From Chiloscyllium plagiosum (Eukaryota), in NCBI RefSeq assembly GCF_004010195.1, contig NC_057754.1, positions 10,154,385 to 10,193,792 on the forward strand: a stretch of 39,408 nucleotides of DNA, written 5' to 3'. The position numbers and the translations under genes were made by a program. Below, one piece after another: positions 22,677 through 24,109 of the stretch (positions within the stretch are counted from its first letter, which is position 1; every line of letters starts with the position of its first letter). The notes under the pieces were generated by a model, which saw only the letters and a program-made list of their open reading frames with translations, was not told the DNA's origin and made no database searches.

Positions 22677-23133
22677 ATTTGTTATGGACCAGGCCAGACC
22701 CCCAAAACATATTTAAAGAAGGTAGCCTAGACCCTAATATTTTCTTATTTTAAAGGCAGATGTGATACAGATATCCTAGGTGTGAGGTAGCTGGTCAAAC
22801 TACTCGGCTTTAAGCAAAACAGAATTTATTTAAACACAAACCAAAGCATACCGAATTTAGAATAACTTTATTTGAAAACTCAACCAACTCAATACCGCAA
22901 ATTAACTTAGGAGCTGTTCCAATTCCTGCAAGATCCCATAAACATGCCCCTTGGCAAAAGATAAATTCAAACACAAGTTCTCACAGGCAGGAGAGATTTC
23001 AGAGAGAAAGTCAGTCAGGAGCCATCTGCTGAAGCTTGGAACCTTTCTTTACTACAACCAGCTTCTCACTGTAACAGCTAAACGAGAAAAAACCTGAACT
23101 GGGAGAACGTGCCACTTATTAAACTAGACAGGC

Positions 23134-23206
23134 GGGCTAATGGCGCAATGGATAACGCGTCTGACTACGGGTCAGAAGATTGTAGGTTCGACTCCTACCT
23201 AGCTCG
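23134..23206 (+). tRNA. tRNA-Arg(ACG), near-intact (A7:C66 mismatch, G38); probably a retrocopy
   Basis: 73 nt; folds as a cloverleaf with anticodon stem TCTGA/TCAGA, loop CT-ACG-GG and T arm GTAGG-TTCGACT-CCTAC. Closely matches vertebrate Arg-ACG. No encoded CCA and no T4 terminator. Confidence 0.9.
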
Positions 23207-23215
23207 CGTGTGTTT

Positions 23216-23533
23216 GTGGGCGGCACGGTGGCACAGTGGTTAGCACTGCTGCCTCACAGCGCCAGAGACCCGGGTTCAATTCCCTCCTCAGGCGACTGAC
23301 TGTGTGGAGTTTGCACATTCTCCCCGTGTCTGCGTGGGTTTCCTCCAGGTGCTCCGGTTTCCTCCCACAGTCCAAAAATGTGCAGGTTAGGTGAATTGGC
23401 CACGCTAAATTGCCCGTAGTGTTAGGTGCAGGGGTAAATGTAGGGGAATGGGTCTGGGTGGGTGCGCTTCGGTGGGTTGGTGTGGACTTGTTGGGCCGAA
23501 GGGCCTGTTTCCACACTGTAAGTAATCTAATCT
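23216..23533 (+). mobile_element. HE1-type SINE, full length, young
   Basis: ggcggcacggtggcacagtgg (A box), ggttcaattcc (B box), tail gggccgaagggcctgtttccacactgt plus aatct repeats; CpGs retained. Confidence 0.95.
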
Positions 23534-24109
23534 CTAGATTCTTTCCCACACACTTCAGCACCTCTACCTTTACAACCTCTCTTTAAAAAAAGTTCAAGGA
23601 CAAAATAACCTTATTAAAGTGACAGCATCGTCATACACCATTCATTCTTTTATGATGGGGTTTGAAGGGATAATTTTGCTGCTTTACATTAGGGTCTGGA
23701 AGATGAAGTTCGCTGTTTATATTGGGGTCTGTTTGTCTGGGACCACCTTGATCAAGACATTAACTGATTCCTTTTTTCAGCTTGTGCAGTGTTTCACTGC
23801 CACATTTCCTACATGATCACAGGGATGACACTCTGAAAGGATATGGTTTATCTGTAAAACTCATTGGGACATCTTGACGTAGTGAAACTTTCCGAAGACG
23901 GAAGACAACATCCCAAACTGGAACAGTTTCATCTTCTTGCAGAGAAATCAAAAACTTGAATGCTATGTGTTTGACACATACTTATTTATTAAATGTGTTT
24001 CATAATATTAAGCTTCAGTGCAGTCACAAGGATTGTTAATATTAACTATCAGAATTAGTTCATCCCAGATGGGATTAATGCCAGAATCTGACCCTATCAT
24101 GTGAATATT

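What the first reader, a model, noticed from the sequence alone, without database searches (positions are those of the whole stretch)
23124..23538. Candidate pre-tRNA-Arg/HE1 SINE chimeric retrocopy inserted in a Gypsy LTR
Seen: CTAGA (23124-28), 5-nt leader caggc, near-intact tRNA-Arg(ACG) without CCA, 9-nt trailer cgtgtgttt, full HE1 SINE with tail, CTAGA (23534-38), all within an LTR. Known: Pol III primary tRNA transcripts have short leaders and trailers ending in a few U, and LINE machinery makes small-RNA chimeras such as mammalian U6/L1. Inference: an unprocessed pre-tRNA was joined to a SINE (template switch, RNA ligation or read-through) and inserted as one unit by the CR1/HER1 enzyme. 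This would be a route to new tRNA loci or dimeric SINEs in sharks. The 5-bp TSD is short enough to be chance.
Basis: partly seen in the sequence, partly recalled or inferred. Interest (0 to 1): 0.75.

Follow-up and report, generated by a model that had tools for sequence, protein, structure and literature searches.

The report
Pre-tRNA fused to shark SINE
A whole arginine tRNA copy that still carries an unprocessed-type 3' tail sits head-to-tail on a complete short jumping element inside a single break of an older repeat; it is one of many separate fusions of this kind in the genome, likely made when the copying enzyme jumped from one RNA to the next, which is the proposed first step in the birth of new SINE families.

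Summary
In detail: tRNA-Arg(ACG) at 23134-23206, a 9-nt trailer and no CCA, a full HE1-type SINE at 23216-23533, and CTAGA on both sides. Sister LTR copies are uninterrupted at this site, so the cassette entered the LTR later. The junction is unique in the assembly, so there is no daughter family. It is one of at least 24 distinct tRNA+HE1 sense fusions examined, of about nine tRNA types. Target-site duplications of 5 nt or more bracket the whole unit in 10 of 24 (null 0.12, p=0.0002) and the SINE alone in 1 of 24. Trailers match tRNA-gene flanks and stop at T-runs. Of the 30 best U6 copies, 11 head a full HE1, and three-part chains occur. Best reading: the CR1-type reverse transcriptase likely jumped end-to-end onto a U-tailed pre-tRNA; RNA ligation is not excluded. 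This is a new variant of known U6/SINE chimeras. The scan has already reported this phenomenon on other DNA of this and other genomes.

The parts
22680..23635 (-). Host LTR (TG...CA; about 80% identical to many sister copies), interrupted antisense by the cassette
   Evidence: followed on the minus strand by a primer-binding-like site and a decayed gag-like region (zf-CCHC E 0.0027, below cut-off)
23124..23128 (+). Left target-site duplication CTAGA
   Evidence: single site in sister LTRs
23129..23133 (+). 5 nt (CAGGC) of unknown origin; likely extra nucleotides of the 5' junction, not a source-gene leader
   Evidence: only this locus; array leaders end in GTGT/GTGC; 5' extra nucleotides described for L2-clade LINEs in PMC4245944 (passages)
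23134..23206 (+). tRNA-Arg(ACG) copy, full length, no CCA; 2 of 73 differences from array gene L002 (position 7, which breaks acceptor pair 7:66, and position 38)
23207..23215 (+). 3' trailer ending in TTT, like the trailers of the tandem-array Arg genes
   Evidence: L004 trailer begins cgtgtgcttt
23216..23533 (+). Full-length HE1-type SINE from its normal 5' end to the AATCT tail; best other copy among the fetched loci is 95.9% identical
   Evidence: 47,643 exact head motifs in the genome
23534..23538 (+). Right target-site duplication CTAGA

Best explanation
This is a one-off chimeric retrocopy: a tRNA-Arg copy with its 3' trailer and a complete HE1-type SINE sit between one pair of 5-bp repeats inside an older LTR, and they were likely pasted in one step when the CR1-type reverse transcriptase finished the SINE RNA and jumped onto the U-rich end of a pre-tRNA. 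Shown: the anatomy, uninterrupted sister LTRs, recurrence with many tRNAs and with U6, duplications around whole units, and trailers that match gene flanks and stop at T-runs. Inferred: target-primed reverse transcription began on the HE1 tail (established for stringent LINE/SINE pairs); the enzyme ran off the SINE's 5' end and re-primed on a nuclear Pol III transcript ending in oligo(U); it copied that RNA to base +1; five extra bases were added when the 5' end was joined. Because the copy starts at +1 but keeps its trailer, the template may have been a leader-cleaved, trailer-bearing intermediate (inferred). The copy is probably a dead tRNA (broken pair 7:66; only three T before the SINE).
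For: Empty sister sites. Orientation: 16 of 30 fetched sense tRNA-end+HE1-head loci carry an ARAGORN tRNA at the match, against 0 of 23 antisense control loci, p=1e-5. Duplication of 5 nt or more around the whole unit in 10 of 24 (null 0.118, permutation p=0.0002); around HE1 alone in 1 of 24 (null 0.045). The host repeat continues across the whole unit in 5 of 24 chimeras; the other 19 had no informative match (one of them a self-match only) among the fetched loci. TTT within 14 nt of the HE1 head in 22 of 25 chimeras against 5 of 30 plain HE1. Four Gly chimeras end at trailer position 13-14 or 27, where gene L150 has T-runs at 11-13 and 23-27; chimera L082 shares only about 7 nt of leader, and the trailer up to its T-run, with array gene L020. 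11 of 30 U6 copies head an HE1 with its 5' end, 1 heads a truncated one; background 17 of 31 with head, p=0.03. Three-part chains: Gly/Arg/LINE (L011), U6/Lys/LINE-like (L123), U6/tRNA/HE1 (L155). RtcB ligation needs a cyclic phosphate and a 5'-OH and is strongly reduced by a 3'-OH or a 5' triphosphate (PMC6789731, passages); nascent Pol III RNAs are expected to carry exactly those unfavourable ends (own knowledge).
Against: DNA sequence cannot separate a jump from ligation, and for human U6/L1 ligation was shown directly (PMC6789731). 14 of 24 chimeras have no duplication of 5 nt or more. The positive control was weak: plain HE1 copies gave 4 of 26 (null 0.071, p=0.10). A first, looser test showed enrichment for both placements (unit 14 of 25 vs 0.377; HE1-only 11 of 25 vs 0.228), and I tightened it afterwards. 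The antisense control used a different anchor motif, so it is not perfectly matched. The exact source gene of this copy was not found. The patterns select for full-length HE1 heads; only the U6 set is unbiased on that point.
Confidence: 0.65

Rival explanations
1. One insertion, but the two RNAs were ligated first (by RtcB or another nuclear ligase) and the joined RNA was then copied through its HE1 tail.
For: This is the demonstrated route for human U6/L1 (PMC6789731, passages). U6/HE1 fusions are common here (11 of 30). Three-part chains could be serial ligations.
Against: The 3' partners start at their native 5' ends (HE1 +1; a tRNA with its short leader in L011 and L123), where a triphosphate is expected, and pre-tRNA trailers are expected to end in 3'-OH (own knowledge). 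Both ends reduce RtcB ligation in PMC6789731.
Confidence: 0.18
2. Two separate insertions: a tRNA retrocopy landed first, and an HE1 later inserted at its T-rich end.
For: HE1 is abundant (47,643 heads). The 5-bp repeat is short. T-rich ends could attract insertions.
Against: No second duplication around HE1 alone, here or in 23 of 24 cases. Strict sense orientation, 16 of 30 vs 0 of 23. No fetched sister LTR carries a tRNA at the site.
Confidence: 0.07
3. Read-through from a master locus: an HE1 sat behind a tRNA gene with a weak terminator, and the dimer transcript was retrotransposed (5' transduction, or a nascent dimeric SINE).
For: Only three T separate the tRNA from HE1, and the first TTTT after the tRNA is at 23648. 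Several Arg chimeras (L003, L011, L016, L017) share a similar trailer start. tRNA arrays are poorly assembled, so a master could be missing.
Against: This junction occurs once. Chimeras of one tRNA type differ in trailer end point and HE1 subfamily. About nine tRNA types and U6 would each need a master. Among the Arg and Gly chimeras compared with array genes by eye, none keeps long array-type upstream flanks.
Confidence: 0.08

Closest known systems
U6/SINE and U6/L2 chimeric retrocopies of platypus (Mon-1) and Anolis (AnolisSINE2); Doucet et al. 2015, PMC4476161 (passages seen)
   Same: A small Pol III RNA joined in sense to a SINE of a stringent LINE, with short duplications (1-9 bp in platypus); attributed to template switching. 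U6/HE1 cases occur in this genome too.
   Different: The captured RNA here is a full-length tRNA with its 3' trailer, of many types, and the SINE partner is full length. In platypus U6-L2 chimeras the U6 is mostly 5'-truncated and the L2 piece short.
Human tRNA/LINE-1 chimeras; Law and Burns 2025, 10.1101/2025.02.02.635956 (abstract and passages seen; supplements not seen)
   Same: A tRNA and a retroelement inserted together inside one duplication.
   Different: Those are 21 loci, mostly tRNA halves in antisense orientation, read as twin priming, with 9-19 bp duplications. Here they are whole, sense and trailer-bearing, and the partner is a SINE.
U6/L1 chimeras made by RtcB ligation; Moldovan et al. 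2019, PMC6789731 (passages seen)
   Same: A U-ended small RNA joined 5' of a retroelement RNA.
   Different: That route needs a cyclic phosphate and a 5'-OH, and the L1 part is 5'-truncated. Here the partners keep their native 5' ends.
Pre-tRNA retropseudogenes (Schmitz et al. 2004; known to me only as cited in PMC4476161) and head addition in SINE evolution (Kojima 2015, PMC4494074, passages seen)
   Same: Pre-tRNA as a template for LINE machinery; RNA-gene heads added to the 5' end of SINEs by template switch.
   Different: Kojima's SINEU, Bov-tA and similar elements are amplified families. These fusions are single copies with no shared junction.

Membership tests
Chimeric retrocopy (small RNA + retroelement, one insertion) | Both parts inside one target-site duplication, with an empty site lacking both | tested here: met
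   CTAGA pair; uninterrupted sister LTRs; orthologous sites in other species not examined
Chimeric retrocopy (small RNA + retroelement, one insertion) | Same orientation, retroelement 3' tail at the right end | tested here: met
   sense 16 of 30 vs antisense 0 of 23
Chimeric retrocopy (small RNA + retroelement, one insertion) | Joined by template switch rather than ligation | not testable with these tools
   only indirect arguments from end chemistry
Pre-tRNA retrocopy | 3' trailer from a tRNA gene, no CCA | tested here: met
   trailer resembles array genes, closest L004; exact source gene not found
Pre-tRNA retrocopy | 5' leader from a tRNA gene | tested here: not met
   leader+tRNA pattern occurs only at this locus; array leaders end in GTGT/GTGC
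Dimeric SINE family | Many dispersed copies sharing one junction | tested here: not met
   junction found once
Dimeric SINE family | Transcribed as one Pol III unit | not tested
   no T4 run before 23648 allows it; no expression data were obtained
Functional tRNA gene | Intact cloverleaf and a T4 or longer terminator | tested here: not met
   acceptor pair 7:66 broken; only TTT before the SINE
HE1 V-SINE / HER1 CR1 LINE pair | Identity to the published HE1 consensus and a tail shared with HER1 | tested here: inconclusive
   name recalled; pair listed in PMC3747384 (table passage); the SINE's 3' part matches the LINE-like piece in L125 at 74% over 47 nt; no reference sequence on hand
Gypsy LTR retrotransposon (host) | LTR, PBS, gag, and pol in the order PR-RT-RH-IN | tested here: inconclusive
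   LTR, PBS-like site and a CCHC knuckle below cut-off seen; pol order not tested

The most novel reading that the evidence does not exclude
The shark CR1-type reverse transcriptase chains U-tailed Pol III transcripts end to end as a routine side reaction (tRNA/SINE, U6/SINE, tRNA/tRNA/LINE, U6/tRNA/SINE). The genome would then be a fossil library of germline pre-tRNA processing intermediates and a standing pool of proto-dimeric SINEs. This copy, with its tRNA promoter boxes recognisable and no T4 terminator until about 115 nt past the SINE tail, would be a transcribable dimer that could found a family, and other copies could be retroposed tRNA genes that still work.
Probability: 0.2. Interest if true: 0.72.

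Novelty: new variant of a known kind. Interest (0 to 1): 0.5.

Why it matters
How SINEs gain new tRNA, 5S or snRNA heads is usually inferred from finished families. Here the proposed intermediate is present in dozens of single copies whose trailers can be matched to source tRNA arrays, so template jumping and RNA ligation can be tested in a non-L1 system. It also gives a way for a stringent LINE, which should ignore RNAs lacking its tail, to scatter tRNA copies, and it warns that some dispersed tRNA gene calls in shark genomes are such passengers.

Tried and rejected
Source gene with the leader CAGGC: none. Source gene with the exact trailer: the pattern found 3 matches, all dispersed retrocopies; a looser pattern found 5, of which 3 are array genes with different trailers. 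LTR-borne tRNA: no fetched sister LTR has it. The first duplication test was too loose and is superseded (then); L162 was dropped from the second test as a tandem duplicate of L161, and L008, L013 and L156 were left out as re-fetches of L082, L066 and L063. Of 30 loci fetched, 14 had no ARAGORN tRNA; most are SINE-in-SINE nests, and L064, L068, L074 and L091 look like decayed or truncated tRNAs (only L074 was confirmed by Rfam); none of the 14 was counted. Pfam did not name the gag-like frames above cut-off. Public runs holding the stretch were listed (5 rows hold half the words or more, all of organism A; rows of organism B hold 0.44-0.47), but no reads or contigs were laid, so presence in other individuals or species and expression remain open. 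Literature searches found no paper on pre-tRNA/HE1 fusions; the library lacks most subscription papers, and the bioRxiv supplement of Law and Burns was not seen.

Full report
Observation. The sequence reads as described: CTAGA 23124-28, CAGGC, a tRNA at 23134-23206, a 9-nt trailer ending in TTT with no CCA, a 318-bp SINE ending in AATCT repeats, and CTAGA 23534-38. ARAGORN calls tRNA-Arg(acg), the only tRNA in the window; Rfam gives 51 bits. Two other copies of the SINE lie in the window, and 47,643 exact head motifs occur in the genome. I call it HE1 from recall; PMC3747384 (table passage) lists HE1 and HER1 as a shark SINE/LINE pair.

Host site. The left flank hits a large repeat family (2,325 candidates, 40 scored). 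In the 29 sister copies fetched, none has the tRNA at this site. The left and right flanks are adjacent in 23 hits. A regex picked the site in 10 of the 29, and 8 of these read TAG once, mostly AAACTAGG then CTCT/TTCT. So the cassette entered an existing LTR, antisense to it, and CTAGA is the duplicated target. The LTR spans about 22680-23635 on the minus strand and is followed by a primer-binding-like site and decayed gag-like frames with a CCHC knuckle below Pfam's cut-off. 'Gypsy' is plausible but untested. A 5-bp duplication is what L2/CR1 elements make (peak 3-5 bp, PMC4245944, passages).

Source of the tRNA. The nearest relatives are tandem-array Arg genes on short contigs (L002, L004-L007). 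The copy differs from L002 at 2 of 73 positions, one of which breaks acceptor pair 7:66. The array trailers begin [ac]gtg[ct]g; L004 reads cgtgtgcttt against the window's cgtgtgttt, so the trailer is of gene-flank type, but the exact gene is not in the assembly. The array leaders end in GTGT or GTGC, and three other Arg retrocopies carry ATGTGT (L011, L016, L017). CAGGC matches none of these, and the leader+tRNA pattern occurs only here. It is best read as extra bases of the 5' junction, which about half of zebrafish ZfL2-2 copies carry (PMC4245944). The template may have been a leader-cleaved, trailer-bearing intermediate (inference).

Recurrence. A pattern for a tRNA T-loop followed within 14-40 nt by an HE1 head gave 36 matches. 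Of 30 fetched, 16 have an ARAGORN tRNA at the match. The antisense control, with a different anchor, gave 23 matches and 0 tRNAs (p=1e-5). A second pattern gave 266 matches; 7 of the first 30 have a tRNA, one of them a re-fetch and two a tandem pair. With three more, 24 distinct fusions were analysed: Arg, Gly, Glu, Leu, His, Thr, Cys, Trp and Ser-like. Extrapolating the second sample suggests some dozens more, roughly one or two per thousand HE1 heads (rough inference).

One event or two. A first, loose duplication test was enriched both around the unit and around HE1 alone. With the right-hand copy pinned to the end of the tail, 10 of 24 have a duplication of 5 nt or more around the whole unit (null 0.118, p=0.0002), and 1 of 24 around HE1 alone (null 0.045). 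Plain HE1 copies, the positive control, gave only 4 of 26 (p=0.10), so the test has limited power. In 5 of 24 the host repeat continues across the whole unit; the rest were uninformative. TTT lies within 14 nt of the HE1 head in 22 of 25 fusions against 5 of 30 plain copies. Four Gly fusions end at trailer position 13-14 or 27, matching the two T-runs (11-13 and 23-27) of Gly gene L150. The Arg-TCG fusion L082 shares about 7 nt of leader and the trailer up to its T-run with array gene L020, and nothing further upstream. These are the ends of Pol III transcripts, not of duplicated DNA. Different end points for one tRNA type mean independent events, and the window's junction is unique, so there is no dimeric SINE family.

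Other passengers. Of the 30 best U6 copies fetched (48 scored), 11 are followed directly by a sense HE1 with its head and 1 by a truncated HE1; the background is 17 of 31 with head (p=0.03). Three-part chains exist: Gly-tRNA+trailer / Arg-tRNA+trailer / LINE 3' piece (L011), U6 / Lys-tRNA+trailer / LINE-like sequence (L123), U6 3' part / tRNA / HE1 (L155), and a 5S-like 3' end / U6 / LINE piece (L125; the 5S label is recalled, and Rfam did not call it).

Mechanism. Reverse transcription must start on the SINE tail, since stringent LINEs need their own 3' end (PMC3747384, passages). The simplest account is that the enzyme reaches the 5' end of the SINE RNA and jumps onto the oligo(U) end of another nuclear Pol III transcript, sometimes twice. 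RNA ligation, proven for human U6/L1, needs a cyclic phosphate and a 5'-OH and falls sharply with a 3'-OH or a 5' triphosphate (PMC6789731, passages). Nascent pre-tRNAs and full-length SINE RNAs should carry those unfavourable ends (own knowledge), which tilts toward jumping but does not exclude another ligase. I put jumping at 0.65, ligation at 0.18, read-through from a master at 0.08 and two insertions at 0.07. Insertion as a single unit, by whichever route, stands at about 0.9.

Known and new. U6/SINE chimeras are described in platypus and anole, and pre-tRNA retropseudogenes in human (PMC4476161, passages). Human tRNA/L1 chimeras are mostly antisense halves (10.1101/2025.02.02.635956, abstract and passages). 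Head addition by template switch is the proposed origin of composite SINEs (PMC4494074, passages). I found no paper on whole, sense, trailer-bearing tRNAs fused to HE1, in a library that lacks most subscription journals. The scan's own notes report the same phenomenon at other places in this genome and in other genomes. I read them after forming my view; they are not independent support. Verdict: real, a new variant of a known kind, and this copy is probably inert. Presence in other individuals and expression were not examined.

Noticed in passing
L011:1392-1750 (G000:C48): Three-part chain: decayed tRNA-Gly with its long trailer, then tRNA-Arg with a short leader and trailer, then a LINE 3' piece with tail.
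   Followed up: partly
L123 (G000:C17), minus strand around 1424-1607: U6 joined directly to tRNA-Lys(CTT) with a trailer, followed by LINE-like sequence.
   Followed up: partly
L125 (G000:C4), minus strand around 1501-1650: A 5S-rRNA-like 3' end with TTTT (label recalled), then U6, then a LINE 3' piece.
   Followed up: partly
L155:1405-1900 (G000:C1): U6 3' part, then a tRNA with trailer, then a full HE1.
   Followed up: partly
L120, L127, L128, L132, L137, L140-L145: 11 of the 30 best U6 copies are U6/HE1 sense fusions, mostly with older HE1 subfamilies.
   Followed up: partly
L161/L162 (G000:C2:27213727-27214200): A tRNA-Cys/HE1 fusion present twice, 397 bp apart, with near-identical upstream flanks: a local tandem duplication.
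   Followed up: no
L063 (G000:C1): A Leu-CAG/HE1 fusion with about 35 extra nt between the host break and the tRNA, far longer than the usual leader.
   Followed up: no
window 23171 and L008, L011, L025: Several dispersed Arg retrocopies share the same change at tRNA position 38 relative to most array genes; one array-type gene (L014) has it too, so it may be a source variant.
   Followed up: no
window 37426-37456: An HE1 copy with its first 16 or so bases duplicated at the 5' end and an internal deletion.
   Followed up: no
L121, L124, L129, L135 (G000:C21, C89242): U6 copies in a tandem-like arrangement with shared flanks, unlike the single genes on C25.
   Followed up: no
window 26714-26882: A 77-nt inverted repeat, 97% complementary, with 15 nt between the arms, made of a common short repeat.
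   Followed up: no
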